Shown here: positions 2,143-38,375 of the stretch, piece after piece
How positions within the stretch are numbered: the stretch's first letter is position 1
Layout: each line of letters opens with the position of its first letter
Assembly (NCBI GenBank): GCA_041663745.1
Contig: JBAYMB010000001.1
Location: 1 to 56,632, forward strand
Source of the DNA: Minisyncoccota bacterium
GTDB taxonomy: Bacteria; Patescibacteriota; Minisyncoccia; Phycocordibacterales; GWA1-40-21
Reading direction: 5' to 3'
Length of the DNA: 56,632 bases
Program-made: the position numbers and the translations under genes
Notes under the pieces: model-generated
The model's database searches: none
Told to the model about the DNA's origin: nothing
What the model saw: only the letters and a program-made list of their open reading frames with translations

Positions 2143-2369
2143 CTATTTTTGCGTTGCACAACATCCTTTTACGACACTAGTGCGCAGAGGCAATCATTGG
2201 CTTTTTGAACGTTTCTCTGAGCTCAAATAGAGAATAAGTTTGAAAAGATATTTAGATAGTTTGGACAATATCGGATTGGAATCCCTTTCGTATGGATGTA
2301 GCAATAATAACAAAGTCAAGATGGGGATTTCACAAAGCGGAAATCCATCTTTTTTGATATAATAAACTT

Positions 2370-3197
2370 ATGAAACAAAGAGCTTTTACTCTCATAGAGC
2401 TTCTCGTAGTCATTGCCATCGTGGGCATTCTTTCTTCAGTCATCTACACGAATATCACAGGGCTCAGGGACAGAGCAAGGATAACTGCTGGAATACGGTT
2501 TGATTCCAGCTTGTACCATTCCATAGGAGATCAGCTTGTGGGAAAATATGACCTTGAGGAAGGAACTGGTGGATCGGGAACTGTCATAAAAGATGCAAGC
2601 GGATTGGGGAATAATGGAACGATAAACACTGCAGGTACGTCTTGGAGTACAGATACATATAATCAAACGCAATCAAGATATTCTATTTCTTTCAGCGGAG
2701 CTGACTACTTCACCCCTTCAAGGGGATTTGGCATATCAAACAGCAATTTCACATTCACCGAATGGATCAAGACTACGAGCACGAACGGTCAAATGTATAC
2801 CATAGCGAATGCAGGCGGCGGAGATGGATATAGGTTTGGACTGGCTGACGGGAAAATAGCTTTTCTAATCGGAAATAGCGGAGGCTTGAACGAATCTTTC
2901 GGCGCAGGTTGCACATCCAGATCCGTAAATGATGGTTCATGGCATCATATTGCAGGTGTCTTTGACCGGGTCAATGGCATATTTTCCTGCTATGTCGATG
3001 GGAACAAGGTCGGAACAAGATCAATCACATATTTTGCGAACATGAATGATTCTGCTCCAAGAATAGGCAAGGGGATTTGCTGCACCAATTTTGTAGGCTC
3101 GCTTGATGATGTGAGGATATACAGCTCAAGTCTTGATGGTCTGAGCATACGATCAATATACGAGGAAGAGAAGAATAAATATCTGGTCTCAAATTGA
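2370..3197 (+). CDS. Prepilin-type N-terminal domain protein with LamG/concanavalin-like domain (pseudopilin paralog 1)
   Basis: MKQRA|FTLIELLVVIAIVGILSS class-III signal, and a C-terminal ...LDDVRIYSSSL motif typical of LamG pilin-like proteins. TGaTATAAT (2355-2363) lies 6 nt before the ATG. Confidence 0.8.
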   Translation: MKQRAFTLIELLVVIAIVGILSSVIYTNITGLRDRARITAGIRFDSSLYHSIGDQLVGKYDLEEGTGGSGTVIKDASGLGNNGTINTAGTSWSTDTYNQTQSRYSISFSGADYFTPSRGFGISNSNFTFTEWIKTTSTNGQMYTIANAGGGDGYRFGLADGKIAFLIGNSGGLNESFGAGCTSRSVNDGSWHHIAGVFDRVNGIFSCYVDGNKVGTRSITYFANMNDSAPRIGKGICCTNFVGSLDDVRIYSSSLDGLSIRSIYEEEKNKYLVSN

Positions 3198-3226
3198 TCC
3201 TATGCAACCATGATATAATGGGTCCA

Positions 3227-5608
3227 ATGACGAAAGAGAATAAAAACAAGGTTCTGGTCCTTCTTGATGTCCATGCCATAATCCATCGCGCATATCATGC
3301 GCTTCCAGAATTTGCCACAAGCAAGGGCGTGCCGACAGGCGCTCTATACGGCCTCTCCACGATGCTTTTGAAGATCATAGGAGATCTCAAGCCGGACTAC
3401 ATCATCGCCTGCTACGATCTTCCCAAACCGACATACAGACATGAGGCATACAAAGAATACAAAGCCGGCAGAGCCAAAGCTGATGAAGAGCTTGTCATAC
3501 AATTGAAGAGGTCATACGACATCTTCAATGCTTTCAATATCCCTCTGTATTCAAAGGAAGGATTTGAGGCTGATGACATGATAGGGACAATAGTGGAGAA
3601 GATGAAGAAGGAAAAAGATATTGATATAGTCATCGCTTCCGGGGACATGGACACCCTTCAGCTCGTGGATGATGACAGGGTCAGAGTGTATACCCTTAAA
3701 AAAGGCATCAAAGACACCATCATATACAACGAAAAAGCGGTCTTGGAGAGATACGGCTTCGGACCGGAGCTTCTTCCGGACTACAAAGGCCTTCGCGGAG
3801 ACCCGTCTGACAATATAATAGGCATAAAAGGCATAGGGGAGAAGACTGCAACTGATCTAATAATCAATTTCGGCAGCATTGAGGATATATATAAGAAGCT
3901 AAAGAAGGACAAGACACAATTTGAGAAAGCGGGAATAAAGGAAAGGATAATAGGATTGCTTCTCGAGGGGGAGGAGGAGGCTAAGTTCTCCAAAATGCTC
4001 GGTACTGTGAACAGGAATGCTCCCATAGATTTCTCATTGCCTGAAAAGACATGGAAGGAAGCGATCGATGTCGAGAAGGTCAATGCTGTATGGAACGATT
4101 TCGAGTTTCGGACTCTGGGACAGAGGCTCAAGGATGTTTTGCATGGCAAAGCATCCGCTGTGAAGGAGGAAAAGGTTGAAACTGCATCCGATGAGACATA
4201 CGAGGACATCCCGGAGCTTTCTGTCATGCTTTGGCTCATAAACTCGAACATGACAAGTCCGACTTCCGAGGATGTTTTCAATTTCACAAAGACGAGAGAT
4301 GCAAAGGAAGCGAAGAAGGTCCTTTCCGAGGAGATAAAGAAAAGAGAGCTTCAAAAAGTATGGGAGACCATAGAAAAACCTTTGATACCCGTCATAGTCA
4401 AGATGCAAAATAACGGAGTGAAGATAGACAAGGAAGAGCTCAATGCCCTATCCAAGAAATATCACAAGGAGCTGTCCTCTCTTGAGGAAAAGATATGGAA
4501 GCTTGCCGGGGAGAATTTCAATATCAATTCACCTAAACAATTGGGAGAGATTCTTTTTGTTAAGCTTGGCCTAAAACCCAAGAATCAGAAAAAGACTGGT
4601 TCCGGTGCATTATCTACTAAAGAATCAGAGCTCGAAAAGATGAGAGATATGCATCCGATAGTTCCTCTCATATTTGAATACAGAGAATTTCAAAAACTTC
4701 TCTCCACATATATTGATGTCATCCCAACTATGCTCGATGCAAATGACAGGCTTCATGCCAAGTTCCTCCAAGCAGGGACGACGACAGGAAGACTTGCATC
4801 TTCCGATCCGAATCTGCAGAACATTCCGAACTCAAGCGAGCTCGGAAGGAACATCCGGGAGGCGTTCATAACGGAAAAAGGCAAAAAGCTCCTGACCTTT
4901 GACTATTCTCAAGCAGAGCTCAGGATCGCCGCACTCCTTTCAAACGATCAAAAGCTCATCGATATCTTCAAAAAAGGGGAGGATGTCCACACCGTCGTTG
5001 CTTCAGAGGTATTCAATGTCCCTCCAAAGGATGTGGACAAGGAGATGAGGCGAAGGGCAAAGGTCATCAACTTCGGCATCATGTACGGAATGGGAGTGAA
5101 TTCCTTGAAAGGCAATCTAGGCTCTACGAGGGAGGAGGCGCAGAAATATCTGGATGAGTATTTCACGAAATTCCACGGCTTGGCGAAATATCTTGAATTT
5201 GTCAAAGCCGATGCAAAGGAAAAAGGATACACAGAGACGCTTTTCGGCAGGAGGAGATATTTTGAAGGCCTTAGATCAAAAGTTCCATTCATTAAGGCCA
5301 TGGCAGAGAGAATGGCCATCAATGCTCCGATACAGGGCACGGAAGCTGATGTCATTAAGCTTGCAATGGTCAAGATAGATGAATACATCACGAAAGAAAA
5401 TCTAGAAGAGAAGGTGAAAATGACCCTTCAGGTCCATGATGAGCTTGTCTTTGAGGTGGACGAGAAGCTTCCGAAGGAGATAGTCCTTGAAATAAAGGGA
5501 ATAATGGAGAATATAGTGTCCAAGGATATGTCAAAGGGGATTGTCATGAAGGTTGACGCTTCGGAAGGGAGGAATTGGAAAGAGATGGAAAAGATCAAGT
5601 TTTCTTGA
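3227..5608 (+). CDS. polA: DNA polymerase I
   Basis: 5'-nuclease motifs (LLDVHAIIHRAYHA, GDPSDNIIGIKGIGEKTA) and polymerase motifs (DYSQAELRI, RRRAKVINFGIMYGM, QVHDELVFEV). Start moved from track TTG-3194 to in-frame ATG-3227, which lies 7 nt after TGaTATAAT (3211-3219). Confidence 0.9.
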   Translation: MTKENKNKVLVLLDVHAIIHRAYHALPEFATSKGVPTGALYGLSTMLLKIIGDLKPDYIIACYDLPKPTYRHEAYKEYKAGRAKADEELVIQLKRSYDIFNAFNIPLYSKEGFEADDMIGTIVEKMKKEKDIDIVIASGDMDTLQLVDDDRVRVYTLKKGIKDTIIYNEKAVLERYGFGPELLPDYKGLRGDPSDNIIGIKGIGEKTATDLIINFGSIEDIYKKLKKDKTQFEKAGIKERIIGLLLEGEEEAKFSKMLGTVNRNAPIDFSLPEKTWKEAIDVEKVNAVWNDFEFRTLGQRLKDVLHGKASAVKEEKVETASDETYEDIPELSVMLWLINSNMTSPTSEDVFNFTKTRDAKEAKKVLSEEIKKRELQKVWETIEKPLIPVIVKMQNNGVKIDKEELNALSKKYHKELSSLEEKIWKLAGENFNINSPKQLGEILFVKLGLKPKNQKKTGSGALSTKESELEKMRDMHPIVPLIFEYREFQKLLSTYIDVIPTMLDANDRLHAKFLQAGTTTGRLASSDPNLQNIPNSSELGRNIREAFITEKGKKLLTFDYSQAELRIAALLSNDQKLIDIFKKGEDVHTVVASEVFNVPPKDVDKEMRRRAKVINFGIMYGMGVNSLKGNLGSTREEAQKYLDEYFTKFHGLAKYLEFVKADAKEKGYTETLFGRRRYFEGLRSKVPFIKAMAERMAINAPIQGTEADVIKLAMVKIDEYITKENLEEKVKMTLQVHDELVFEVDEKLPKEIVLEIKGIMENIVSKDMSKGIVMKVDASEGRNWKEMEKIKFS

Positions 5609-5655
5609 CAAAAATCAGGCATTTTGATAAGATGCAGGGGTAATAAGGACATGTA

Positions 5656-5684
5656 AGTTCGCTTCAGGGCGAACTCATTTTTTT
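5656..5684 (+). terminator. Rho-independent terminator
   Basis: AGTTCGC (5656-5662) pairs with GCGAACT (5669-5675), then T7. Confidence 0.7.
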
Positions 5685-5705
5685 AAATAATAATCAAATA
5701 AAACC

Positions 5706-6905
5706 ATGATAGATCTAAAAGTCATAAATTCGGTCATAGAGCAGATGGAGGCTGAGAAGGGAATACCAAAAGCCAAGATGATAGAGGCCATAGAGCTGGC
5801 TCTTGCAACTGCATACAAGAAGGAATACGGAAAGAGAGGCCAGATCATAAAAGCAAAGATAGACTTGGGTTCCGGAAAGATGGAATTCGTCCAGCTCAAG
5901 ACCGTTGTCGACAAAGACAGCGTTGTTTTGCGTGAGGACAAGAAGGAGGACAAGGAGGCTGAGGAACGGTTCAGAAGAAGCAGAAGAATGGAGGAAGAGA
6001 AGGAGGAGCTCAATGAAAAGGGAGAGAAGGTCACATACTACAATTCCGAACATCATATCTTTTTGGCTGATGCGAAGAAGATAAAGAAGGACGCAAAGGT
6101 GGGCGATGAGCTCGTATTTCCTCTTGAAGAGAAATCAGACTACGGCAGGATCGCCGCTCAGACCGCAAAGCAGGTCATCGTCCAGAAGATAAGGGAAGCT
6201 GAAAAAGTTTCCGTGTTCAACGAATACGGGGAAAAGGAGGGCACCATAGTCACGGGCACAGTACAGAGGCTTGAAAGGGGAAATCTTTTTGTTGATATGG
6301 GAAGAGCCACTGCAATATTGCCTTTTGAGGAGCAGATACCAGGCGAGAAATACAAGCCGGGAGAGAGGATCAGAGCATATCTATACAGAGTGGAAGAGAC
6401 CCCGAAGGGGATCTTCTTGAGGCTCTCACGTTCTCATCCGAAATTCCTCGAAGAGCTTTTCAAGTCTGAATCTCCGGAACTCGGGTCAGGCGCAGTTCTC
6501 GTGAAGTCAATCGCAAGGGAAGCAGGTTCAAGATCGAAGATAGCGGTCGCTTCGATAGATGAGCATATAGATCCTGTGGGATCGCTTGTCGGACAGAGAG
6601 GCGTGCGCGTTGCGACAGTCATGTCCGAGCTCGGAGGGGAGAAGATAGATATCATAGAATGGTCTCCTGATCCGAAAAAATTCATAGAAGAAGCATTGTC
6701 TCCGGCAAGAGTCCTTTCCGTCTCAGTTGATGATTTGGAGAAGAAAGCCACCATAGAGGTCGCTGAGGACCAGCAATCTCTGGCCATCGGAAAGGGAGGA
6801 CAGAACGTCAGACTTGCCGCCAAGCTCACAGGATGGAAGATAGACATAGTTTCCGTGGAGGGGGAATATGTAGAGGAAGATGAGGTGGAGGAAAAAGCTA
6901 AATAA
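5706..6905 (+). CDS. nusA: Transcription termination/antitermination factor NusA
   Basis: NusA NTD, S1 domain (GTVQRLERGNLFVDMG) and two KH domains (LAIGKGGQNVRLAAKLTGWKIDI). Carries a ~40-aa highly charged insertion between NTD and S1. Confidence 0.9.
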   Translation: MIDLKVINSVIEQMEAEKGIPKAKMIEAIELALATAYKKEYGKRGQIIKAKIDLGSGKMEFVQLKTVVDKDSVVLREDKKEDKEAEERFRRSRRMEEEKEELNEKGEKVTYYNSEHHIFLADAKKIKKDAKVGDELVFPLEEKSDYGRIAAQTAKQVIVQKIREAEKVSVFNEYGEKEGTIVTGTVQRLERGNLFVDMGRATAILPFEEQIPGEKYKPGERIRAYLYRVEETPKGIFLRLSRSHPKFLEELFKSESPELGSGAVLVKSIAREAGSRSKIAVASIDEHIDPVGSLVGQRGVRVATVMSELGGEKIDIIEWSPDPKKFIEEALSPARVLSVSVDDLEKKATIEVAEDQQSLAIGKGGQNVRLAAKLTGWKIDIVSVEGEYVEEDEVEEKAK

Positions 6906-21852: not shown

Positions 21853-22537
21853 ATATCAAATACTTCTCTATTTCTACGAGCAAAGACAGCTGAGGACAAT
21901 CAACATCAAGATTTTTTTCTTTCTGGTTCACCAAGATCGAATTTATTCCCAATTTCTTCGGTTCCATGTGATCTGACATCACTCTGTCTCCGATATACAA
22001 GAACTGGTCAGGTTTGAGACTAGGATATTTTTTCATCCATATCTTATATGCCGAACCGTCCGATTTTGAGACATCATCTTGAGTGAAAATATTATTGAAT
22101 AGACGGAGATCGAACCCAAGATGTCCAAGTTTTTCCTTTGTTATCTTCAGGTTTGAGCCGGTTATGATATCCAGATTGCCATACCTTTCCTTCAGTTTTT
22201 TGACGATGCTCAGTGTTTTTTCGTCAGGGCTCAAGAACTTCGCTATATCGGCCTTTTCAAGGGCCATTTGAACGACCTCTTTGGCATTTGGAACGCCAAG
22301 AACCTCCAGACTTTTGCTGCCGCTCAGTCCAGCCCCGTCCTTATACAGGTCTTTGAACATTTTTTTGGATTCCTCTATGGTCGTGTGCCTTTGCTCCGAT
22401 ATCTTCCTATATATGTATTCTTGTATAGTCTCATCGATCTCCGGAGATTTCGGAAAGAGCGTCTGGTCCAGATCGAAGCCTATGACCTTTATGTTTTTTT
22501 TATAGTCAAAATTCATATTAGTTTGATCTTCCGACAT
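21851..22537 (-). CDS. HAD-superfamily (subfamily IA-like) phosphatase, possible nucleotidase
   Basis: Motif I VIGFDLDQTLF, with motif III/IV ...YIGDRVMSD. Overlaps the upstream gene by 20 nt. Confidence 0.75.
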   Translation of the reverse strand: MSEDQTNMNFDYKKNIKVIGFDLDQTLFPKSPEIDETIQEYIYRKISEQRHTTIEESKKMFKDLYKDGAGLSGSKSLEVLGVPNAKEVVQMALEKADIAKFLSPDEKTLSIVKKLKERYGNLDIITGSNLKITKEKLGHLGFDLRLFNNIFTQDDVSKSDGSAYKIWMKKYPSLKPDQFLYIGDRVMSDHMEPKKLGINSILVNQKEKNLDVDCPQLSLLVEIEKYLI

Positions 22538-24926
22538 ATATTATCACGGATTCACCGAGATCGTTCCCCAGCTCTTTCTTGTATTGCGTCACGAGATAGT
22601 TCACAAGCCCTCTGTCTTTTTCCAGATTTTTTATGGAATGGTTCATGAACACTGCTGTGGCGTATATCTTTTCGCCATACACATTCGCTTGGAAGAATGC
22701 CAGCATGTCGGATTGCGGGTCGGTCTTGCCCGGAATATATTCGCCTATTATCGGGTTATTGTGCTTGCCGCCCTTTTTGACTAGATATTCTATGGCTTTA
22801 TTGAGTATGTTGACGCTGTTGTAATTTTCCAGGACGTCCAAAGTCCTGCTTTTCGGCCTCTCGTCGCTCTCCTTCGCCTGTTCTTGGAATATAGCGACGA
22901 TATTTTTCGGCCTTATTCCGCCTTTTCCTTTCAGATCATACGGTCCGCTGTCCATATTCACCTCACCGCAAGGTTTGGACGGTTCTGCGAGGATCTTCTT
23001 CGTCCTCTGCTCTTCGGACAGAAGCAGAATGTTTGCCCTGTTTGAGAGCATGAACATATCGCCGGATCTCAATCCCAAAGCTTCCCGAAGGGGAGCGACA
23101 TATGCATCATGCAGTCCGAAGATGTTTTCCGGATATGCATTCACCGCGTTATGCGCTCTTGCTATGTGGAAAGAATGTAATTTCCCGTTCTCAACGAAAA
23201 ATATGTCGTGGGTCAGGCAGGGGTCATGGGAAAATTTGAGCTTCTTGGTCGCGGTATCGATGTAGAAGGACATGTCCTTCACGGGATCGAACCTTTGGAC
23301 TATGGTCGCCAGATCCTTGTTCTTCAACAAGGTCTTTTTGGTCGTTTCCATCTGATCAAAGCCGAAATATGCCCTTGTCCTCTCGCCGTATGTATATGTC
23401 CCGTCGTTGTCCTTCCTCATCAATTGGCTCTTATATGCTTCCCTTATTTCTTCTCCCGTTTGATTTCCCTGCCTGTATATTTCCGGGAATATCTTCAATG
23501 CGGAATCCACATCCCTGTATATGGCAAGCACGGAAGCGGACCTCGCCAGTCCTTTCCACTCATCCCCGTGATTTTCCGTTATGCCCTCGGTGTATATCTT
23601 CCTCAATACGGATTTATGGGTATCCAAGAACGAATCGCTCTCCGAAACGAGGAAGGGGAGCTTTGTCTTGTTTATCTTGAATATGGGGATGAAGTCCTGA
23701 ATGAAGGAATAGCCGAATTTTGCCGCTATCCCGGCCCTGCTTGTCTGGGTTCCGACATCCAGCCTGTGCAGGAAATCCATCTCATATCTCTCAAATCTGT
23801 CCAATTCGGCTATCTTCTCAAGGACAACGGTGACGCTCTCTGATATGAGCTCAAAAATCTCCTCGCAGGCGTCAAAAGCCATGCACATGACGCGCACGCC
23901 TTCCTTGCCATTGTTTATCTTGTAGTAGTATTTTTTGTCTATTATGGTCTTAATCTGGTTTTCCACGGGAATCTCTCTCGTACCAAGAATATTATTTTCT
24001 TTCACGAAAGGCTTCGTCTCAATGCTGTTTGAGAGCTCGATGCTTGCTCGTCCGAGCTCTGCGCCGAGCACGAGCTGTTCAATATGGGAGAAGGAATCTT
24101 TTTCTTTGCCCAAGAATTTCAAAAGGGTGTATCCGACAATGAAAGGATTCTCCGATTTTATGAAAACATCCCCCTTTTTTGTCCTTATATCGAGCCTTAT
24201 GTACTTTCCTTCGGCGACCGATGCTTTGAACGGGCAGTCGAAAGTCTCGTCTTTTCCGGAGAGTATGATCTTCGGGGGCTCAAGATGCCTGTATTCCTTC
24301 GGGTCTATGTTTATCGCGGTCTTTTTCTCCGTCTTAATCGAAGCTACCAATGAAATGAGCTTGTTCAGGGAGTCATAGTATATCTTGTCTTTTTTGTTAA
24401 TCTCCTCAAGGAGAGCTATGATCTTCGGATCGGTTTTCGGCTTGAGCCAGTTCAGGTAGTTTTCTATTATCTTTTGACTGGCCGCATTTTTGTGCATGAA
24501 CACAGGCAGAACTATGATCTCATCCTTGAAAATATTGAATATGTTCTTGCTCAGGTTGGGGTAATATGGCGAGGCGGCGATACCTTCTTTGATGTAATTT
24601 CCTTCCTTGTTCTCCACGAATCCGTTCTGCATGGCCTGCAGAAGGTTCGTGCTCGGGGCGAAGGTCACGGTCTCCTCGGAGAAAAGTATGAGGTATCTTT
24701 GGGTCGGATGGGCGAGGCAGTTCAATATCATCCTTTCAACGCCATCTCGGCTTACGATGAGCGACCCGAGGACCGCCACATTCTTCCTGTTGTTCTCCTC
24801 TATGCTGCTCAAAACCTCACCGGCCGACGTGGTGTTCGTGCATATGCCGATAATCCCTTGCGCTCCTTCCTCGGGCGTCAGGAGTATCGCTTCTACCAAT
24901 GGAAATTTTGTTTTTATGTCCTTCAT
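22518..24926 (-). CDS. 802-aa fusion: MtrA/DUF4346-like N-terminal domain + unknown middle region + thymidylate-synthase (ThyA)-fold domain
   Basis: Residues ~50-140 (GVERMILNCLAHPTQRYLILFSEE...LLQAMQNG...) parallel MtrA [24 protein letters not shown]...IEALHQNG. Residues ~510-635 (YGERTRAYFGFDQ...DPCLTHDIFFVENGKLHSFHIARAHNAVNAYPENIFGL...GDMFML) parallel ThyA YGKQWR...DQ...[38 protein letters not shown]...GDFVWT. Confidence 0.7.
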   Translation of the reverse strand: MKDIKTKFPLVEAILLTPEEGAQGIIGICTNTTSAGEVLSSIEENNRKNVAVLGSLIVSRDGVERMILNCLAHPTQRYLILFSEETVTFAPSTNLLQAMQNGFVENKEGNYIKEGIAASPYYPNLSKNIFNIFKDEIIVLPVFMHKNAASQKIIENYLNWLKPKTDPKIIALLEEINKKDKIYYDSLNKLISLVASIKTEKKTAINIDPKEYRHLEPPKIILSGKDETFDCPFKASVAEGKYIRLDIRTKKGDVFIKSENPFIVGYTLLKFLGKEKDSFSHIEQLVLGAELGRASIELSNSIETKPFVKENNILGTREIPVENQIKTIIDKKYYYKINNGKEGVRVMCMAFDACEEIFELISESVTVVLEKIAELDRFERYEMDFLHRLDVGTQTSRAGIAAKFGYSFIQDFIPIFKINKTKLPFLVSESDSFLDTHKSVLRKIYTEGITENHGDEWKGLARSASVLAIYRDVDSALKIFPEIYRQGNQTGEEIREAYKSQLMRKDNDGTYTYGERTRAYFGFDQMETTKKTLLKNKDLATIVQRFDPVKDMSFYIDTATKKLKFSHDPCLTHDIFFVENGKLHSFHIARAHNAVNAYPENIFGLHDAYVAPLREALGLRSGDMFMLSNRANILLLSEEQRTKKILAEPSKPCGEVNMDSGPYDLKGKGGIRPKNIVAIFQEQAKESDERPKSRTLDVLENYNSVNILNKAIEYLVKKGGKHNNPIIGEYIPGKTDPQSDMLAFFQANVYGEKIYATAVFMNHSIKNLEKDRGLVNYLVTQYKKELGNDLGESVIIYVGRSN

Positions 24927-24930
24927 TGTT

Positions 24931-25809
24931 TTATTTCCAGTTCTTGCTACTCCAGGAATTCGGCAGATATTCCGATATTGAGTGTTTGTCCATTTTTTCA
25001 GAATCCATGGAGAAACAATGTATGTTCGGGTTCAAATTGAATTTTGCCGATATCTCAGCGATGAATTGGCGGCAGATTCCGCACATATTGCAAGGCTCAT
25101 CCGCATACTTTGTTGAAACGAGAGCGATATCAGTCATCTCCGCATTCCCATCCATCATCGCAGACAGCATTGCGCACATCTCCGAGTGTAGGCCAAGCCT
25201 TTTGTCCGGAGTGGAGTATTGCCCGGCAAAATACAGAGTGCCGTTTTTTGTGAGCACTGCCGTGCCGTATCCAGAAGCTTTGTCGGATGTCGGGAAGTTC
25301 CTCGTCACTCCTTCGATCGCATATTTTTTCAGAGTTCTCGTCTTATCTTCCTCGTCTCTGACCTTGACCGCGATCTTGTTCTTTGAAACTTCAGAATCGT
25401 TCGTCATGGAAAGGATGTTCATCTTCGGGTCATAGTATTTTGAAAGCTCCGTGACATCCTTTACAGATAGCAGGGTCTTTCCTTCAGAATCTATCACCTC
25501 GTATGATATCGGCACTCCGGTTCTTTTATAGTGATCGATCATTATCTCAACGGTCTGAGGCAAGACTGAGACACTGTCTTCCACAAGCGTTATCACTTTG
25601 TTTATTTTGTAGTCTCTTGAAGCTGAGGCCAATGCCAAGGATGCCTGTTCTGAGCTTATGTTCAAAAGATGCGTATCGGAATCAACCGAGCCTGCAATAT
25701 ATGAGTTTCCCTTTTCCGATATGGCAATAGAGGATGTCTTTTTACCTTCCTTTTTTTTGCTGACGCACAGATCCAAGGCCTCTTTTAGGGTTTTTGCGTG
25801 ATTTTGCAT
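24931..25809 (-). CDS. cdd: Two-domain cytidine deaminase (degenerate N-terminal domain, catalytic C-terminal domain)
   Basis: C-terminal half has HSEMCAM (H-A-E type) and PCNMCGICRQFIAE (PCxxC) zinc motifs. The N-terminal half has SEQASLA and LPQTVEIM at the equivalent positions, with no ligands. Confidence 0.75.
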   Translation of the reverse strand: MQNHAKTLKEALDLCVSKKKEGKKTSSIAISEKGNSYIAGSVDSDTHLLNISSEQASLALASASRDYKINKVITLVEDSVSVLPQTVEIMIDHYKRTGVPISYEVIDSEGKTLLSVKDVTELSKYYDPKMNILSMTNDSEVSKNKIAVKVRDEEDKTRTLKKYAIEGVTRNFPTSDKASGYGTAVLTKNGTLYFAGQYSTPDKRLGLHSEMCAMLSAMMDGNAEMTDIALVSTKYADEPCNMCGICRQFIAEISAKFNLNPNIHCFSMDSEKMDKHSISEYLPNSWSSKNWK

Positions 25810-26821: not shown

Positions 26822-27292
26822 ATGGGAAATATCGATCAAAAACAGGTGAAATACGTCCTAGAGACGGACAAGTTCATGAAACTGGCCAGGGAATATGCTG
26901 AAAGGTATTCGACCGACCGACTGCAGCCTGTCGGTTCTGTCATTGTCAAGAACGGAGAGGTCGTGGGGGGAGGGGCGAACAAGATGCCCATAAACAACCA
27001 CAGGTTCCAATTGATGCATGCTCGGGGATTTTGTATACGTCGAATTCTACATATTCCATCTGGAAAGCTATACTGGCTCTGTCCCGGATGCGGCCAGCCG
27101 AGAAATCATTCGGAAAGAAGGGCTATTAGAGATGCTGTGAAGAGGGGTATGGATATAGATGGAGCGGACCTATACCTTTGGGGACATTTTCAAGTGTGCG
27201 AGACATGTCGGGATGCTATAATGAAGGCTCGGATAAAGAATGTCTTCTTGCTTGAGAATAGCAATGTTCTGTTTAAAAGGAAAAATACATAA
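26822..27292 (+). CDS. dCMP (deoxycytidylate) deaminase-family zinc deaminase
   Basis: HSERRAIRDA (HxE) and QVCETCRDAIMKA (CxxC) motifs; ~156 aa, ComEB/dCMP-deaminase-like. Confidence 0.75.
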   Translation: MGNIDQKQVKYVLETDKFMKLAREYAERYSTDRLQPVGSVIVKNGEVVGGGANKMPINNHRFQLMHARGFCIRRILHIPSGKLYWLCPGCGQPRNHSERRAIRDAVKRGMDIDGADLYLWGHFQVCETCRDAIMKARIKNVFLLENSNVLFKRKNT

Positions 27293-33839: not shown

Positions 33840-33915
33840 TCACGTATTGTAATAATAATCCATTGGTGTAGTATTCCATCCAGAAATACAGTACCAGGCA
33901 TGAAAGGAGTCTAAA

Positions 33916-34404
33916 TTGGCAACTAAGACCAAGACTCTTGAGTTTTTGATGGATGTGCATATCCCCTCGGTCACAAAAGAGTTTGTGGTAGGGGATAATT
34001 TCAAGGAAATGCCCCTCGGGATATTCTCGTACATCAGTCAGGCCTCCAAGAAATTCTTGGCGGAGAACCCGATGGTCTTGCCGCGCAAAAGCTACACCGT
34101 ATCCGTTCATCAGCCTCGCATCTTTTGCACGACGAGAGACATATTGGAAGAGCTCGGCCAGGGCGAAATGGACCTTGCTGCCATCCGTTTCATCTTGAAC
34201 AAGCAAGAAGGAGGCAGAAGGGGACCGCTTCTCACGAACAACAGGCCAAATGTCTTTCGTGTGCTGACGGCGACCGTTTATTTCGTTTGGGACGAGGGTA
34301 GGGGATGGATCATGGATGTGAGCTACCCTTCGCCCGAAACCTATTTATGGAACGAGGAAGACAGGATCTTCTCCAGAAAGGCCAAGGTCGAGCAGAAGAA
34401 GTGA
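33916..34404 (+). CDS. Hypothetical protein in a G+C-rich islet
   Basis: TTG start 6 nt after AAGGAG (33904-33909). 162 aa with G/C-ending codons. Confidence 0.5.
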   Translation: MATKTKTLEFLMDVHIPSVTKEFVVGDNFKEMPLGIFSYISQASKKFLAENPMVLPRKSYTVSVHQPRIFCTTRDILEELGQGEMDLAAIRFILNKQEGGRRGPLLTNNRPNVFRVLTATVYFVWDEGRGWIMDVSYPSPETYLWNEEDRIFSRKAKVEQKK

Positions 34405-34416
34405 GGAATGGTGCAA

Positions 34417-34448
34417 GGTCCCGAGCTGTATGGCTTGGGACTTTTTTT
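34417..34448 (+). terminator. Rho-independent terminator
   Basis: GTCCCGAG (34418-34425) pairs with CTTGGGAC (34434-34441) including one G-U, then T7. Confidence 0.7.
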
Positions 34449-34468
34449 GCATATGATATAATTGGCAT

Positions 34469-34792
34469 ATGAACATGGAAATGCCACCAACAGAAGAAGG
34501 TAATATAGAAAAAGGAAAAGTCCTTGAGATGTTGAGAACGAATGGTTTTGATCATCCAGAAACTAGAGAATTAGTGATCAAATGGACAGAGCAACAAGAA
34601 GCCCTGGTCGTCACAAGCCGTGATGCCATTGTTTTAAATATTGAACGAACAGACCTGTATCTTGCTGCAGGAGATAAAGACGGAGCTATAGAATGCCTTG
34701 AAGACGCTTTGACGCAGGCGGACCAGGAAAATGAGAAAGAACTTCAAGATCAAATTGTAGAAAAGATAAAACAAATAAAGGGCCAAAGTTGA
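34469..34792 (+). CDS. Hypothetical acidic helical protein
   Basis: 107-aa ORF. TGaTATAAT (34454-34462) lies 6 nt before the ATG. Confidence 0.5.
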   Translation: MNMEMPPTEEGNIEKGKVLEMLRTNGFDHPETRELVIKWTEQQEALVVTSRDAIVLNIERTDLYLAAGDKDGAIECLEDALTQADQENEKELQDQIVEKIKQIKGQS

Positions 34793-34871
34793 TTTAAGAT
34801 ATGAGTTTGAGCGAGACTTGCCTCGCCCTTTTTTTCCATTAAAAATCTGATACAATGGAAACTCATATATT

Positions 34872-37800
34872 ATGACCGAAAAACAGCAAAAACCGGTGAC
34901 AAAAAGCAAATTTGCCGAAAGGGAGGAGGAGATATTGCAATTCTGGCAAGAGAGGGAGATATTCAAGAAAACTTTGGAAAAACCTTCAAAGGGCGAGTTT
35001 GTCTTCTATGACGGACCTCCTTTCGCGACAGGTCTTCCTCACTACGGCCATATCCTTGCCGGCACAATGAAGGATTACATCGGCAGATATCAGACGATGA
35101 AGGGCAAGCACGTTCCTCGCCGATGGGGCTGGGACACCCACGGAATTCCCGTGGAAGTCATTGTTGAAAAGGAGATCGGGCTCAAATCAAAAAAGGACGT
35201 TGAAGATTTTGGCTTGGAAAAGTTCAATGACATAGCCAGGTCAAAGGTCATGACATACGCCGATGATTGGAAGAAAATAATCCCTAGGCTCGGGAGATTT
35301 GTGGACATGGAGAACGACTACAAGACGATGAACTCGGCCTTCACCGAAAGCGTCTGGTGGGTCTTCAAGGAATTGCACAAGAAAGGCCTGGTATATGAAG
35401 GCTTCAAATCAATGCACATATGCCCTCATTGCGGTACGACCCTATCAAATTTTGAAGTAGGTCAGGGATATAAAGACATTACAGATCTGTCTGTCACGGT
35501 AAAATTCGAGCTTGTGGATGAGCCTAATACATTTGTCTTGGCTTGGACGACGACCCCATGGACCCTTCCAGGGAACGTGGCTCTTGCAGTGAACCCAAAA
35601 TTCGACTATGTGGAAATAGAGAGGAAGGATGAAGGAAGGTTCATACTGGCGAAAGATCTCTTGAAAAAGGTTTTCAAGGATGAAAAGTATTCCATAGTCA
35701 AGGAGATGAAGGGCGCTGAGCTTGTAGGCAGATCATACAATCCGCTTTTCTCATACTATGACAAGATAGACATCAAAAACAAGGAAAACGGCTTCAAGAT
35801 ATATCCGGCTGATTTCGTCACAATGGAAGACGGCACCGGAGTGGTGCATATCGCCCCTGCATTCGGCGAGGACGATCTGAAGCTTGGAAATGAGAAGAAG
35901 CTTCCCTTCATCCAGCATGTCGGGATGGACGGAAGGTTCAGGCCAGAGGTCACGGATTTTGCCGGCCAAAAGGTCAAACCAATAGAAGATCCCCAAGCTG
36001 CGGACATTGAGATCATAAAATTCTTGGCCAAGAAGGGGACTTTGTTTGAAAAGGAGAAGTTCATCCACTCATATCCTCATTGCTACAGATGCGACACCCC
36101 GCTTTTGAACTACGCCACGAGCTCATGGTTCGTTGAGATAGCGAAATTCAAGGACAAGCTCATTGCGGCCAACAAAAAGATAAGATGGGTCCCAAGCGAT
36201 CTTGGGGAAGGCAGATTCGGAAAGCTTCTGGAGTCTGCTCCTGATTGGTCCATCTCAAGAACGAGATTTTGGGGCGCATCGATGCCAATATGGAGATGCC
36301 AGAACGAGAAATGCAATGAGAAGGAGTTCATCGGATCGGTCGGGGAGATAAAGGAAAGGACGAAAAGCAAGAACAAGTTCCTGGTCGTCAGGCACGGAGA
36401 GTCGGAGAGCAATCTCACGGGAATTCTGAGCTCCGATCCGAAGTCAGTTAACCATCTGACTGACAAAGGCAGGGAACAAGCTGTCCTTGCCGCAAAGAAC
36501 CTCATGCACAAGGTGGATGTCATATACTGCTCTCCTTTCATGAGGACAAAAGAGACCGCCGAGATCATCGCAGAAACAATCGGATATCCGAAGGACAAGA
36601 TCGTATACGATGAAAGGCTTCATGAGATATATGGGGGGGAATTTGACGGCAAGAACGACAAGGAATATCAGGCATTCTTCGGGAACAGGGAGGAAAAGTT
36701 CACAAAAACCCCTAAAGGAGGGGAGAACTACCAAGTAGTCATCAAAAGGATGACCGAGTTCGTATATGAGACTGACGCAAAAAATGAAGGAAAGAACATC
36801 CTGATCGTCTCCCACAATACCCCTATCTGGCTCATGTTCTGCGGAACTGCGGGGCTTGATAAGAAACAGGCTTTGAAGACAAGGAAGCAGGGAGAGGCTT
36901 TTATAGAGAATTCCGAGATCAAAGAGCTTGATTTTGCCCCCATTCCGCACAACAGGAACTATGAGCTTGACCTCCATCGCCCGTTCATCGATGAGATAAA
37001 TCTCAAATGCAAATGTGGCGGTGTGATGAAGCGCATCCCCGAGGTCTTTGATTGCTGGTTCGAGTCCGGGTCCATGCCATACGGTGAGATGCACTATCCT
37101 TTCGAGAATACGGACATATTCGACCCGAAGAAGCATCTCAGATTTCCTGCAGACTTCATTGCCGAGGGAATAGACCAGACTCGCGGATGGTTCTACTCCA
37201 TGCTTGTCGTCTCAGTCGCGCTTTTCGGCGAGTCTTCATACAAGAATGTCATTGCAAACGGGATTGTCCTTGCGGAAGACGGGTTGAAAATGGCAAAGAG
37301 ACTGAAAAATTACACCGATCCTGTCATGCTTGCCGAGAAATACAGCGCTGATGCCATGCGATACTATCTTTTGTCATCTCCAGGCGTGCGGGCGGAAGAC
37401 CTGAAATTCTCCGATCGTGGAGTCGATGAGACATTGAAAAAAGTGATCATGAGGCTCCAAAACGTCTTCTCTTTCTTTGAGATGTATGGCGGATTTGATG
37501 TGGCAGTGAAGGAGAATGCCTCAAAGAACATTTTGGACAAGTGGATTCTCGCAAGACTAGAAGAGACTGCTTTTCAAATAACAAAAGCGACTGATAACTA
37601 TGAACTGGACAGGGCGACAAGGCCGATAGCGGACCTTGTGGACGACATCTCTACGTGGTTCCTGAGGAGATCGAGAGACAGATTTAAGTCCGAGGACGCG
37701 GAGGACAGGCACTCGGCTATGCTGACGACTCGAACCGTGATACTCGAGCTTTCCAAGCTCATGGCCCCTTCGATGCCTTTTCTTGCCGAGGACCTATACT

Positions 37801-38375
37801 TGAAAATAACGGGCGGGATGGGGAAGGAGAGCGTTCATTTGGAAGATTGGCCGGACCATCTTGTGAAAGAGCTTTCGGATGAAAAGACCAAGATGATAGA
37901 AACGATGAATGAAGTGAGGAAGATCGTATCTTTGGGACTTGAGGCAAGGGTGAAGGCGGGTATAAAAGTCAGACAGCCCCTGTCCAGTTTGAAGGTCAAA
38001 AGCGAGAAGTTCGAAGGAAAGAAGGAATACCTAGATCTCATCAGGGACGAGGTCAATGTAAAAGAGGTCGTATGCGATGCATCGATTGCAAACGAGATCG
38101 AGCTTGATGTGAACATCACGCCTATATTAAAAGATGAGGGGATCATGCGTGATATCGTCAGAGCCATTCAGGACTTGAGGAAGAACAAGAAGCTCAATCC
38201 GAGTGACCTTGTAGATCTTGTAGTGGATACCGATGATGCAGGTAAGAGGATATTCGAGAAATTCACAGAAGAGATATCAAAGACGACTGGTCTCAAAGAA
38301 ATAAGTTTTGAACATCTTGATAGCGGGGAGATCTTGGAGCTTGAGGGGATGAGAGCTAGGGTGGAGATAGCATAG
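34872..38375 (+). CDS. ileS: Isoleucyl-tRNA synthetase (type 2-like) with an inserted histidine-phosphatase (PGAM-like) domain
   Basis: PHYGHILAG (HIGH), CP1 editing domain (TTTPWTLPGN), GLKMAKRLKNY (KMSKS-like). Residues ~498-697 form an insertion carrying LVVRHGESESN and ILIVSHNTPIW. Confidence 0.9.
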   Translation: MTEKQQKPVTKSKFAEREEEILQFWQEREIFKKTLEKPSKGEFVFYDGPPFATGLPHYGHILAGTMKDYIGRYQTMKGKHVPRRWGWDTHGIPVEVIVEKEIGLKSKKDVEDFGLEKFNDIARSKVMTYADDWKKIIPRLGRFVDMENDYKTMNSAFTESVWWVFKELHKKGLVYEGFKSMHICPHCGTTLSNFEVGQGYKDITDLSVTVKFELVDEPNTFVLAWTTTPWTLPGNVALAVNPKFDYVEIERKDEGRFILAKDLLKKVFKDEKYSIVKEMKGAELVGRSYNPLFSYYDKIDIKNKENGFKIYPADFVTMEDGTGVVHIAPAFGEDDLKLGNEKKLPFIQHVGMDGRFRPEVTDFAGQKVKPIEDPQAADIEIIKFLAKKGTLFEKEKFIHSYPHCYRCDTPLLNYATSSWFVEIAKFKDKLIAANKKIRWVPSDLGEGRFGKLLESAPDWSISRTRFWGASMPIWRCQNEKCNEKEFIGSVGEIKERTKSKNKFLVVRHGESESNLTGILSSDPKSVNHLTDKGREQAVLAAKNLMHKVDVIYCSPFMRTKETAEIIAETIGYPKDKIVYDERLHEIYGGEFDGKNDKEYQAFFGNREEKFTKTPKGGENYQVVIKRMTEFVYETDAKNEGKNILIVSHNTPIWLMFCGTAGLDKKQALKTRKQGEAFIENSEIKELDFAPIPHNRNYELDLHRPFIDEINLKCKCGGVMKRIPEVFDCWFESGSMPYGEMHYPFENTDIFDPKKHLRFPADFIAEGIDQTRGWFYSMLVVSVALFGESSYKNVIANGIVLAEDGLKMAKRLKNYTDPVMLAEKYSADAMRYYLLSSPGVRAEDLKFSDRGVDETLKKVIMRLQNVFSFFEMYGGFDVAVKENASKNILDKWILARLEETAFQITKATDNYELDRATRPIADLVDDISTWFLRRSRDRFKSEDAEDRHSAMLTTRTVILELSKLMAPSMPFLAEDLYLKITGGMGKESVHLEDWPDHLVKELSDEKTKMIETMNEVRKIVSLGLEARVKAGIKVRQPLSSLKVKSEKFEGKKEYLDLIRDEVNVKEVVCDASIANEIELDVNITPILKDEGIMRDIVRAIQDLRKNKKLNPSDLVDLVVDTDDAGKRIFEKFTEEISKTTGLKEISFEHLDSGEILELEGMRARVEIA

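What the first reader, a model, noticed from the sequence alone, without database searches (positions are those of the whole stretch)
36363..36962. Histidine-phosphatase (PGAM-like, RHG) domain inserted inside isoleucyl-tRNA synthetase
IleRS normally goes within a few dozen residues from ...PIW-x-C...(I/V)GS..E(L/I)... to ...DLHRP(Y/F)IDE...C.CG....R..EV.DCWF.SG. Here ~200 residues (about aa 498-697) are intercalated between these two motifs.

The insert begins KFLVVRHGESESNLTG, which is the RHGE-x-x-N catalytic motif of histidine phosphatase superfamily branch 1. It continues with CSPFMRTKETAEII and ends with ILIVSHNTPIW, the second catalytic His. The flanking IleRS sequence is intact and in frame, so this is one polypeptide of 1167 aa.

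I am not aware of a phosphatase domain embedded in an aminoacyl-tRNA synthetase. Three speculative roles are possible:
- Healing of 3'-phosphate or 2',3'-cyclic-phosphate tRNA ends before charging.
- Hydrolysis of a phosphorylated metabolite or alarmone made by the synthetase (Ap4A-type).
- A moonlighting metabolic phosphatase in a reduced genome.
Basis: partly seen in the sequence, partly recalled or inferred. Interest (0 to 1): 0.8.

Follow-up and report, generated by a model that had tools for sequence, protein, structure and literature searches.

The report
Phosphatase domain nested inside IleRS
The isoleucyl-tRNA synthetase of this candidate-phyla-radiation bacterium, and of hundreds of its relatives, carries a complete and apparently active histidine-phosphatase enzyme inserted into one of its surface loops; no searchable paper describes this two-enzyme arrangement, and its purpose is unknown.

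Summary
ORF 34872..38375(+) encodes one 1167-aa type-2 IleRS. Residues ~498-697 (nt 36363-36962) are a PF00300 histidine-phosphatase domain (E 2e-34). It replaces a ~7-residue loop between the two halves of the CP3 zinc knuckle.

It is not an assembly artefact. The identical protein is in NCBI, JGI, ENA and Logan (a Paceibacterota MAG). There are 205 50%-identity clusters with E<=1e-30, and 71 species-level genomes carry the same nested architecture (Paceibacterota/Minisyncoccia and Peribacteria).

Catalytic residues R507, H508, R558, E585 and H648 are 98-100% conserved in 175 full-length homologs. AlphaFold gives a confident autonomous domain (insert pLDDT mostly >90; whole model pTM 0.80). 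Some relatives carry a second His_Phos copy, in tandem or at other IleRS sites.

The domain resembles ~200-aa small-molecule phosphatases (PspA, PhoE, CobC) but reaches no equivalog threshold, including dPGM.

Best reading: a bifunctional housekeeping IleRS plus an active phosphomonoesterase, substrate unknown and most likely a small molecule. A tRNA-3'-end role is not excluded.

No paper describing it was found. Verdict: real, widespread and uncharacterised; a new variant of a known kind. Interest 0.62.

The parts
34872..38375 (+). Complete ileS ORF (1167 aa plus stop): type-2 (eukaryote-like) isoleucyl-tRNA synthetase with a nested phosphatase domain
   Evidence: TIGR00392 scores 860 bits. 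The best PDB relatives are P. megaterium IleRS2 (8C8U) and T. thermophilus 1ILE.
35040..35051 (+). HIGH signature (HYGH, aa 57-60) of the class I catalytic domain
   Evidence: H57, G59 and H60 are each conserved in at least 90% of 114 homologs.
35544..35849 (+). CP1 editing-domain signature motifs WTTTPWT (aa 225-231) and GTGVVH (aa 321-326)
   Evidence: Both are invariant in alignment A1.
36243..36275 (+). CP2-CP3 linker DWSISRTRFWG (aa 458-468), homologous to the yeast IleRS segment that lines the tRNA CCA-end / reveromycin pocket
   Evidence: PMC7955072.
36297..36314 (+). First half of the CP3 zinc knuckle, CQNEKC (C476, C481), equivalent to T. thermophilus C461/C464
   Evidence: conserved in 91% and 89%; PMC7191050.
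36363..36962 (+). Inserted histidine-phosphatase (His_Phos_1, PF00300) domain with its linkers, aa 498-697
   Evidence: E 2e-34; pLDDT mostly >90; fold matches PspA, PhoE and CobC.
36390..36398 (+). RHG motif: R507, the nucleophile H508, and G509
   Evidence: R in 175/175, H in 174/175.
36543..36545 (+). R558, second phosphate-binding arginine (SPFMRT motif)
   Evidence: 175/175.
36624..36626 (+). E585, predicted general acid (RLHE motif)
   Evidence: E in 172/175, D in 3. The role is assigned by alignment to PspA and general knowledge of the family.
36723..36725 (+). E618 of the GGE(S/N) cap motif typical of PhoE/CobC-type members
   Evidence: 175/175.
36813..36815 (+). H648, second catalytic histidine (VSHN motif)
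   Evidence: 175/175.
36969..37016 (+). Return to IleRS: DLHRPFIDE followed by the second half of the zinc knuckle, CKC (C713, C715), equivalent to T. thermophilus C502/C504
37287..37301 (+). KMSKS signature (KMAKR, aa 806-810)
   Evidence: K806 and K809 are invariant.
37536..38369 (+). Anticodon-binding domain and type-2 C-terminal domain (Anticodon_1 aa 889-1038; DUF5915 aa 1037-1166)

Best explanation
This is the housekeeping type-2 isoleucyl-tRNA synthetase of a Paceibacterota (CPR/Patescibacteria) bacterium. In an ancestor of a large CPR clade, a ~190-residue branch-1 histidine phosphatase of the small PhoE/PspA/CobC type was inserted into the tip loop of the CP3 zinc knuckle.

Shown: the protein is one polypeptide. 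The IleRS part keeps every signature it needs (HIGH, KMSKS, editing motifs, anticodon-binding domain). The insert is a confidently folded autonomous domain. Its catalytic set is essentially invariant.

Inferred: the insert is a working phosphomonoesterase using the canonical mechanism. The phosphoryl group is transferred to H508. R507, R558 and H648 hold the phosphate and E585 acts as the acid. The phospho-histidine is then hydrolysed. Its substrate is most probably a low-molecular-weight phosphomonoester, such as a phosphorylated metabolite or a nucleotide.

Further His_Phos domains were recruited into IleRS repeatedly, in tandem at CP3, inside the C-x-C knuckle, and at the boundary with the anticodon-binding domain. 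This suggests that attachment to IleRS is itself selected. The reason could be stoichiometric co-expression or local coupling to aminoacylation chemistry, and I cannot tell which.
For: - Architecture.
- Not an artefact: the identical protein P0262 occurs on two contigs and in four source collections. All 120 best full-length homologs (58-77% identity) carry PF00133 plus PF00300.
- Breadth: 205 representative clusters have E<=1e-30, most of them full length and matching insert plus both flanks at aa ~450-750.
- Genomes: 71 genome loci, including contigs of 0.6-1.1 Mb and a complete chromosome, have the phosphatase nested between the IleRS halves.
- Fragmented calls: the split genes in long-read assemblies are collinear frameshifted pieces of one gene.
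- Catalytic residues: R507 and R558 175/175, H508 174/175, E585 172/175, E618 and H648 175/175, R626 173/175.
- Constraint: the insert evolves at about the same rate as the anticodon-binding and C-terminal region (47% versus 46% mean pairwise identity).
- Structure: AlphaFold full length gives pLDDT 88, pTM 0.80, and the insert mostly >90.
- Nearest relatives: by sequence and fold these are ~200-aa small-molecule phosphatases, namely PspA 4IJ5, PhoE 1H2E/1EBB, CobC 6NRU/6E4B, GpgP and HFP 9MMH.
- Charge: the insert is about neutral (mean -0.9, pI 6.9), with no basic signature expected of an RNA binder.
- Repeated recruitment: P0225 and P0257 have a second copy after Q880, and P0260 has one after Q713. 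L068, L069, L072 and L073 have tandem copies from two different His_Phos lineages. All keep the catalytic residues.
- Specificity to IleRS: MetRS, ArgRS and ProRS in the same window carry no extra domain.
Against: - No enzymatic activity has been measured, and the substrate is unknown.
- No NCBIfam equivalog model reaches its cut-off: dPGM_arch 101/225, PspA 70/350, CobC 70/163, SixA 33/74.5. The specificity class is therefore inferred from loose resemblance only.
- If the phosphatase were unrelated to IleRS, one would not expect repeated independent recruitment into this one enzyme.
- The insertion site is ~30 residues downstream of the linker that lines the tRNA CCA pocket, which is compatible with a tRNA-directed role.
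- I could not read model coordinates, so the distance and orientation of H508 relative to the synthetic site, the editing site and the tRNA path are unknown.
- I could not examine whole genomes for missing stand-alone phosphatases or mutases.
Confidence: 0.55

Rival explanations
1. tRNA-end (or RNA-end) phosphatase. The inserted domain removes a 2'- or 3'-terminal phosphate from tRNAIle, for example after nuclease damage, so that the same enzyme can heal and then charge the tRNA. It would be a third, repair-type active site alongside synthesis and editing.
For: - The insertion sits in CP3, directly after the CP2-CP3 linker that lines the CCA-end pocket in yeast IleRS.
- His_Phos domains were recruited into IleRS repeatedly at several sites.
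- One relative (P0259) also carries a P-loop kinase-like segment in the neighbouring loop. It scores AAA_18 32.7 bits and AAA_33 27.6 bits, and has a weak PDB hit to Pnkp1 at E 0.056. That pairing recalls kinase/phosphatase end-healing enzymes.
- In one other lineage, free-standing relatives lie inside the gatC-gatA operon, another aminoacyl-tRNA machine.
Against: - To my knowledge no member of the histidine-phosphatase superfamily is known as a polynucleotide 3'-phosphatase.
- The insert is not basic.
- All of its nearest relatives act on small molecules.
- The kinase insertion is a singleton.
- The gat-operon proteins come from one lineage and are no closer to the insert than unrelated Clostridia proteins.
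- The geometry could not be measured.
Confidence: 0.15
2. Moonlighting glycolytic enzyme. The insert is the cell's cofactor-dependent phosphoglycerate mutase, or another core metabolic phosphatase, fused to an essential and constitutively expressed gene in a reduced genome. It would have no mechanistic link to aminoacylation.
For: - The best NCBIfam match is the archaeal-type short dPGM model NF038349 (E 9e-29).
- The monomeric S. pombe PGM 1FZT is among the top sequence and fold hits.
- CPR genomes are small, and the related contigs span 0.6-1.1 Mb.
Against: - Every dPGM model scores far below its cut-off: NF038349 101/225 and TIGR01258 33.6/81.7.
- From my knowledge of E. coli GpmA, the dPGM substrate-binding residues equivalent to Y92, K100 and R116/R117 are not conserved. 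The columns after E585 are variable and the cap carries the PhoE-type GGE motif.
- This reading does not explain two or three copies in a single IleRS.
Confidence: 0.1
3. Non-catalytic role. The domain works as a ligand sensor, allosteric regulator or dimerisation module. Histidine phosphatases commonly dimerise, and tandem copies could form a pseudo-dimer. It would not act as a turnover enzyme.
For: Tandem copies occur in Peribacteria IleRS, and free-standing tandem His_Phos-His_Phos proteins exist (P0045, P0049). The conserved return linker PxPHNxxYELDLHRP suggests a fixed orientation on the IleRS body.
Against: All catalytic residues are nearly invariant over sequences as divergent as ~30% identity. 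That pattern is typical of active enzymes, not pseudo-enzymes.
Confidence: 0.08
4. Protein phosphatase acting in cis or on partners. It would resemble the PGAM5, Sts and SixA members of the superfamily, for example by reversing inhibitory phosphorylation of the synthetase by HipA-type kinase toxins.
For: There is only a family precedent, which I recall rather than tested. SixA is a weak hit (33 bits against a cut-off of 74.5).
Against: There is no specific similarity to the protein-phosphatase members, no kinase gene in the neighbourhood, and no supporting data.
Confidence: 0.05
5. Assembly chimera or two adjacent genes mis-joined.
For: Some public gene calls are fragments.
Against: Those fragments are contig-truncated or frameshifted pieces of collinear genes. 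The same nested architecture occurs in hundreds of independent assemblies, including complete chromosomes.
Confidence: 0.01

Closest known systems
Type-2 (eukaryote-like) isoleucyl-tRNA synthetase, e.g. Priestia megaterium IleRS2 (PDB 8C8U/8C9D) and Thermus thermophilus IleRS (1ILE)
   Same: It has the same overall domain order: Rossmann fold, CP core, CP1 editing, CP2, CP3, KMSKS, anticodon-binding domain and type-2 C-terminal domain. It has HIGH and KMSKS signatures and a CP3 zinc knuckle like T. thermophilus. The AlphaFold model superposes on 8C9D with TM 0.81 normalised to the target.
   Different: About 200 extra residues forming a complete enzyme domain sit in the CP3 tip loop, where T. 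thermophilus has ~7 residues. The published IleRS domain schemes I read (PMC7191050, PMC7955072) and a 2026 survey of ~96,000 IleRS sequences (10.64898/2026.02.03.703510) do not mention it. In that 2026 survey, text searches for 'phosphatase', 'Patescibacteria' and 'CPR' returned nothing.
Small branch-1 histidine phosphatases: PspA (novel-type phosphoserine phosphatase, 4IJ5), PhoE/YhfR (1H2E, 1EBB), CobC alpha-ribazole phosphatase (6NRU, 6E4B)
   Same: It has the same fold, a size of ~190-200 aa, the RHG...R...E...H catalytic set and the GGE(S) cap motif.
   Different: These are free-standing and often dimeric proteins. Here the domain is nested in a loop of another enzyme. It is only 21-30% identical to them and below every equivalog cut-off. 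It has an unusual SH-N-T-P motif after the second His, where I recall SHGG in typical PhoE/CobC members.
Bifunctional RNase H / acid phosphatase of actinobacteria (Rv2228c type; NCBIfam NF005567)
   Same: A nucleic-acid-processing enzyme is covalently joined to a CobC/PhoE-like histidine phosphatase. NF005567 hits the insert at E 6e-23.
   Different: That protein is an end-to-end fusion, not a nested insertion, and its partner enzyme is different. The score of 82 bits is below the 326-bit cut-off, so this protein is not a member.
aaRSs with extra catalytic domains, e.g. the CP1 editing domain itself and NCBIfam NF040702 'isoleucine--tRNA ligase, N-acetyltransferase domain-containing'
   Same: They set a precedent for catalytic modules inserted into or appended to class Ia synthetases. 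NF040702 exists as a named family, and one relative (P0160) has a GNAT segment.
   Different: The domain type is different (a phosphatase) and so is the location (CP3). NF040702 scores 324 bits against a cut-off of 1999, so it is not that family.
Polynucleotide kinase-phosphatase end-healing enzymes (T4 Pnk, bacterial Pnkp)
   Same: It is only a possible functional analogy: a phosphatase, and in P0259 a P-loop kinase-like segment as well, on a tRNA-handling enzyme.
   Different: From my knowledge, the phosphatase modules of Pnk and Pnkp have HAD or metallophosphoesterase folds, not the histidine-phosphatase fold. No activity data exist.

Membership tests
Isoleucyl-tRNA synthetase (TIGR00392 ileS) | Whole-protein score above the curated equivalog cut-off | tested here: met
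   860.3 bits against a cut-off of 621.4, matched in two stretches split by the insert.
Isoleucyl-tRNA synthetase (TIGR00392 ileS) | Class I signatures HIGH and KMSKS, CP1 editing motifs and an anticodon-binding domain | tested here: met
   HYGH 57-60, KMAKR 806-810, WTTTPWT 225-231, GTGVVH 321-326 and Anticodon_1 889-1038. These are invariant or nearly so in 114 homologs.
Isoleucyl-tRNA synthetase (TIGR00392 ileS) | Isoleucine activation and tRNAIle charging activity | not testable with these tools
   This needs an enzymatic assay.
Type-2 IleRS (IleRS2) | Type-2 C-terminal organisation without the IleRS1 zinc-binding domain, and closest similarity to IleRS2 and eukaryote-like enzymes | tested here: met
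   A DUF5915 C-terminal domain is present. The best PDB hits are PmIleRS2, yeast and T. thermophilus IleRS at E ~1e-225 to 1e-210. IleRS1 entries score only 1e-94 or weaker, and the fold TM values agree.
Histidine phosphatase superfamily, branch 1 (PF00300) | Profile score above the Pfam gathering threshold | tested here: met
   119-122 bits against a cut-off of 21.7, E 2e-34.
Histidine phosphatase superfamily, branch 1 (PF00300) | Catalytic core: RHG nucleophile His, two Arg, second His and an acidic proton donor | tested here: met
   R507, H508, R558, H648 and E585 are present and 98-100% conserved in 175 homologs.
Histidine phosphatase superfamily, branch 1 (PF00300) | alpha/beta fold of the family | tested here: met
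   The AlphaFold domain model has pLDDT 81 alone and >90 in the full-length model. Foldseek probability is 1.00 to PspA, PhoE and CobC, with TM 0.6-0.7.
Histidine phosphatase superfamily, branch 1 (PF00300) | Phosphatase or mutase activity through a phospho-histidine intermediate | not testable with these tools
   This needs a biochemical assay.
Cofactor-dependent phosphoglycerate mutase (dPGM) | Score above the equivalog or subfamily cut-offs (NF038349, TIGR01258 and others) | tested here: not met
   NF038349 scores 100.7-104.7 against 225, TIGR01258 33.6 against 81.7, and all PRK dPGM models are far below their cut-offs.
Phosphoserine phosphatase PspA / alpha-ribazole phosphatase CobC / SixA | Score above the equivalog cut-off | tested here: not met
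   PspA 70-75 against 350, CobC TIGR03162 70-74 against 162.9, and SixA 33 against 74.5.
Pnkp-type RNA end-healing system | Polynucleotide 5'-kinase together with a 2',3'-phosphatase module acting on RNA ends | tested here: not met
   The window protein has no kinase module. A P-loop segment occurs only in the single relative P0259. The phosphatase fold differs from the HAD/MPE modules, which I recall rather than tested.

The most novel reading that the evidence does not exclude
The inserted histidine phosphatase is a new aminoacylation-coupled active site. It would be a third catalytic centre of IleRS, working on the tRNAIle acceptor end by removing a blocking 2'/3'-phosphate, or on a phosphorylated compound generated or bound at the synthetic site. 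IleRS in much of the CPR would then be a combined repair/quality-control and charging enzyme. Repeated independent recruitment of His_Phos domains into IleRS at several sites, and the location next to the CCA-pocket linker, are compatible with this reading and do not exclude it.
Probability: 0.15. Interest if true: 0.85.

Novelty: new variant of a known kind. Interest (0 to 1): 0.62.

Why it matters
Aminoacyl-tRNA synthetases gain new functions mainly by acquiring domains, and the CP1 editing domain is the classic example. This is a complete second enzyme, with a conserved active site, nested inside the catalytic body of an essential synthetase. It is maintained across at least two major CPR lineages and has been recruited repeatedly.

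If the phosphatase is mechanistically coupled to aminoacylation, it would define a new kind of synthetase-associated activity.

If it is an unrelated metabolic enzyme, it is still a striking case of domain nesting in minimal genomes, and it marks the CP3 tip loop of class Ia synthetases as a site that tolerates large insertions.

It also has a practical use. The insert is a clean sequence marker for a large CPR IleRS clade. It explains why NCBI names these proteins only 'class I tRNA ligase family protein', and why gene callers label fragments 'PhoE' or 'phosphoglycerate mutase'.

Tried and rejected
1. Assembly chimera: rejected.
2. Literature: seven searches for any description of IleRS or other aaRSs with a histidine phosphatase, and for the CP3 nomenclature. 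None described the feature. A 2026 IleRS survey of ~96,000 sequences does not mention it.
I repeated it with a tighter alignment. The patterns used were narrow, so the taxon list is a lower bound.
4. The P-loop kinase-like insertion in P0259 as evidence for an end-healing pair: the last homolog search found only IleRS flank matches. It is a singleton and was set aside as anecdotal.
5. The gatC-[His_Phos x2-3]-gatA operon of free-standing relatives: the contigs belong to one lineage (GatA 83-89% identical). Their phosphatases are no closer to the insert than Clostridia or Parasutterella singles with unrelated neighbours. I did not use it as support.
6. Origin of second copies, internal duplication versus independent capture: HMM scores do not discriminate. 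For the Peribacteria tandems, copy 2 is clearly a different lineage.
7. RNA-binding signature: the net charge is about neutral, which gives no support.
8. Rfam and tRNA scans of the window found nothing relevant.
9. Geometry of the phosphatase site relative to the tRNA path: not obtainable, because model coordinates are not exposed.
10. Whole-genome presence or absence of PGM, SerB and PPase genes in carrier genomes: not obtainable, because only +/-10 kb around a hit can be fetched.
Full report
**1. What is in the sequence**

ORF 34872..38375 on the + strand is uninterrupted and encodes 1167 aa.
- Pfam finds the class I synthetase catalytic domain (PF00133) split into two stretches.
- Between them is His_Phos_1 (PF00300) at aa 504-669, with E 2.3e-34 and 119 bits against a gathering score of 21.7.
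- The anticodon-binding domain and the type-2 C-terminal domain DUF5915 follow.
- NCBIfam's ileS equivalog model TIGR00392 scores 860 bits (cut-off 621), also in two stretches.

The IleRS signatures are all present and invariant or nearly so among homologs: HYGH at 57-60, KMAKR at 806-810, and the editing motifs WTTTPWT and GTGVVH. GC content shows no discontinuity across the insert.

**2. Exactly where the insert sits**

Alignment to T. thermophilus IleRS (1ILE) matches our flanks to residues 412-480 and 488-558. About 200 residues therefore replace a loop of ~7.
- The flanks contain C476/C481 (CQNEKC) and C713/C715 (CKC).
- These align with T. thermophilus C461/C464 and C502/C504.
- They are ~90% conserved among 175 homologs.

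Published domain schemes place this segment in the CP3 subdomain (Candida IleRS 473-534, yeast 459-526) and state that T. thermophilus CP3 carries a zinc motif (PMC7191050; PMC7955072). The CP2-CP3 linker immediately upstream is ARDWNVSRNRYWG in yeast and APDWSISRTRFWG (456-468) here. It contributes to the pocket that binds reveromycin A, which that paper says partially mimics the tRNA CCA end.

In my sequence pool, the spacing between the WxISRxRxWG and DLHRP motifs is cleanly bimodal: 31-53 residues in 39 ordinary IleRS2 sequences and 200-250 in 214 insert-bearing ones.

**3. It is real and widespread**

- The identical protein (P0262) is held by NCBI, JGI, Logan and ENA. NCBI names it 'class I tRNA ligase family protein [Candidatus Paceibacterota bacterium]'.
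- All 120 best full-length homologs (58-77% identity) have PF00133 plus PF00300.
- An exhaustive HMMER search of 1.84 billion 50%-identity representatives, using the insert plus flanks, gave 205 proteins at E<=1e-30. Most full-length ones (~1150-1200 aa) match query positions 2-280 at aa ~450-750.
- A scan of GTDB species-representative genomes used deliberately narrow patterns and returned 79 loci. In 71 of them (L003-L073) the phosphatase is nested between the N- and C-terminal parts of an IleRS.
- The labels include Paceibacterota, Minisyncoccia, Taylorbacteria, Harrisonbacteria, Parcubacteria, Patescibacteria and Peribacteria/Peregrinibacteria. There is also one 'Kiritimatiellales' contig of 10.8 kb, which is 91% identical in the insert to a Patescibacteria locus and may be mis-binned.
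- Many loci are labelled 'uncultured Candidatus Saccharibacteria' in third-party assemblies. I regard that label as doubtful.
- Fragmentary gene calls in long-read assemblies (L001, L002) are collinear, frame-shifted pieces of the same gene. They share the synteny ArgRS-IleRS-RecO.

An assembly chimera is excluded.

**4. Is the phosphatase likely to be active?**

Across 175 full-length homologs, some only ~30% identical in the insert, the conservation is:

| Residue | Conservation |
|---|---|
| R507 | 175/175 |
| H508 | 174/175 |
| R558 | 175/175 |
| E585 | 172/175 (remaining 3 are D) |
| E618 | 175/175 |
| R626 | 173/175 |
| H648 | 175/175 |

Mean pairwise identity is 47.6% for the insert, 61.7% for the catalytic core and 46.4% for the anticodon-binding and C-terminal part. 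The insert is therefore under ordinary purifying selection.

AlphaFold2 on a 114-sequence alignment gives mean pLDDT 88 and pTM 0.80. The insert blocks are mostly above 90, and the secondary structure is a typical alpha/beta His_Phos pattern. The whole model superposes on P. megaterium IleRS2.

This pattern is what an active enzyme shows, but activity itself is inferred.

**5. What kind of histidine phosphatase?**

By sequence, the closest solved proteins are:
- Hydrogenobacter PspA (4IJ5, E 4e-14)
- S. pombe monomeric PGM (1FZT)
- PhoE/YhfR (1H2E, 1EBB)
- CobC (6E4B, 6NRU)

By fold the same set appears, plus mycobacterial hydrolases, GpgP and a riboflavin-pathway phosphatase, all at TM 0.6-0.7. 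These are ~200-aa enzymes acting on small phosphomonoesters.

No NCBIfam equivalog is reached: dPGM_arch 101/225, PspA 70/350, CobC 70/163, SixA 33/74.5. From my knowledge of E. coli GpmA, the positions that bind the distal groups of bisphosphoglycerate are not conserved here. I therefore do not file it as a dPGM.

The domain is about neutral (mean net charge -0.9, pI 6.9). That gives no sign of an RNA-binding surface.

**6. Variants that bear on function**

IleRS in these lineages has acquired His_Phos domains more than once.
- P0225 and P0257 have a second copy after position ~880, at the boundary with the anticodon-binding domain.
- P0260 has one inside the C-x-C knuckle.
- P0252 has a duplicated CP3 plus phosphatase.
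- Four Peribacteria/Peregrinibacteria-type loci carry two domains in tandem at the CP3 site.
 - Copy 1 is orthologous to our insert.
 - Copy 2 belongs to a different RHGETxWN lineage, only 24-31% identical to copy 1.
 - Both keep the catalytic residues.
 - A 91%-identical relative lacks copy 2, so it was gained or lost recently.

One representative (P0259) also has a P-loop kinase-like segment in the neighbouring loop. It scores AAA_18 32.7 bits and AAA_33 27.6 bits, with a weak hit to Pnkp1. No second example was found. In the window itself, MetRS, ArgRS and ProRS have no extra domains.

Repeated recruitment into this one enzyme suggests that attachment to IleRS is selected. It does not show why. 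A permissive loop, combined with a domain whose termini lie close together, is an alternative explanation.

**7. Context of free-standing relatives**

- A Patescibacteria homolog (P0042) sits beside a weak NUDIX gene and a GDPD gene.
- A 221-aa family always occurs as 2-3 overlapping genes between gatC and gatA. Those contigs are one lineage (GatA 83-89% identical). Their proteins score no better against an insert HMM (98-122 bits) than Clostridia or Parasutterella singletons (102-132 bits), whose neighbours are unrelated.

I treat this as an anecdote, not as evidence.

**8. Explanation and alternatives**

Best supported is a bifunctional protein: the housekeeping IleRS2 plus an active PhoE/PspA/CobC-like phosphomonoesterase nested in CP3. 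Its substrate is most likely a small molecule (overall confidence 0.55). The architectural part is near certain, and the substrate class is about even odds.

Rivals:

| Reading | Confidence |
|---|---|
| tRNA-end phosphatase coupled to charging | 0.15 |
| Moonlighting dPGM | 0.10 |
| Non-catalytic sensor or dimerisation module | 0.08 |
| Protein phosphatase | 0.05 |
| Artefact | 0.01 |

The decisive data are enzymatic assays with an H508A control, kinetics of an insert-deleted enzyme, the distance from H508 to the tRNA acceptor path in a structure, and gene-content comparison of complete carrier genomes.

**9. Novelty and score**

The sequences are abundant in public databases but only automatically annotated. 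In the open-access and bioRxiv library, none of the seven searches turned up a description of this architecture, and a 2026 large-scale IleRS domain survey does not mention it. Subscription-only literature was not searchable.

I rate it a new variant of a known kind: an aaRS with an additional catalytic domain. Interest is 0.62, because it is well supported and surprising to a synthetase specialist but has no function yet. The most novel reading not excluded is a third, aminoacylation-coupled active site. I give that probability ~0.15 and interest 0.85 if true.

Noticed in passing
window 33840-34871 (ORFs 33916..34404 and 34469..34792, + strand): About 1 kb with two small ORFs (162 and 107 aa, no Pfam hit) and locally raised GC (0.48-0.53) separates argS from ileS. 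In the close relative L001, ArgRS and IleRS are only ~94 nt apart, so this looks like a lineage-specific insertion of unknown nature.
   Followed up: partly
proteins P0225, P0257, P0260, P0252; loci L068, L069, L072, L073 (ORFs covering ~2300-6800): These IleRS variants have two histidine-phosphatase domains. Some are in tandem in CP3, with two different His_Phos lineages. Others have the second copy inside the C-x-C knuckle, or after Q position ~880 at the boundary with the anticodon-binding domain. All copies keep the catalytic residues.
   Followed up: yes
protein P0259, aa ~735-910: One IleRS+His_Phos relative also has a Walker-A P-loop kinase-like segment (GACGAGKTT; AAA_18 and AAA_33 above Pfam cut-offs when scanned alone; weak PDB hit to Pnkp1). 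It is inserted in the loop after the DCWFESGSMPY motif. No second example was found.
   Followed up: partly
protein P0160 (1066 aa): This IleRS+His_Phos has an IS200-like Y1 transposase segment inside the editing domain (after Q296) and a C-terminal GNAT domain in place of the anticodon-binding domain. It may be a pseudogene, a chimera or a paralog. NCBIfam has a named family 'ileS_w_GNAT' (NF040702).
   Followed up: no
loci L084-L088 (e.g. L084 5724-9740): In one uncultured lineage, two or three overlapping free-standing His_Phos genes are wedged between gatC and gatA of the tRNA-dependent amidotransferase operon. Ham1 (ITPase), a YfbR-like HD nucleotidase and MurT/GatD lie upstream.
   Followed up: partly
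locus L079 3995-5017: A Clostridia MAG encodes a His_Phos-CinA (competence-damage / PncC-like) fusion protein of 340 aa.
   Followed up: no
window 22518-24926 (- strand): This large 802-aa ORF has only a marginal Pfam hit (MtrA, 24.7 bits, below cut-off). Two cytidine/dCMP-deaminase-like ORFs lie nearby (24931-25809 on the - strand; 26822-27292 on the + strand).
   Followed up: no
window 1-56632: There are no tRNA genes (ARAGORN) and no Rfam family at gathering threshold anywhere in the 56.6 kb, although it is a dense housekeeping region (PolA, NusA, trigger factor, MetRS, ArgRS, IleRS, RecO, ProRS, FtsK).
   Followed up: no
locus L067 (JAIPIN010000037.1, labelled Kiritimatiellales, 10.8 kb contig): Its IleRS insert is 91% identical to that of a marine Patescibacteria MAG (L068 copy 1). 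The contig is probably mis-binned rather than evidence of transfer outside the CPR.
   Followed up: partly
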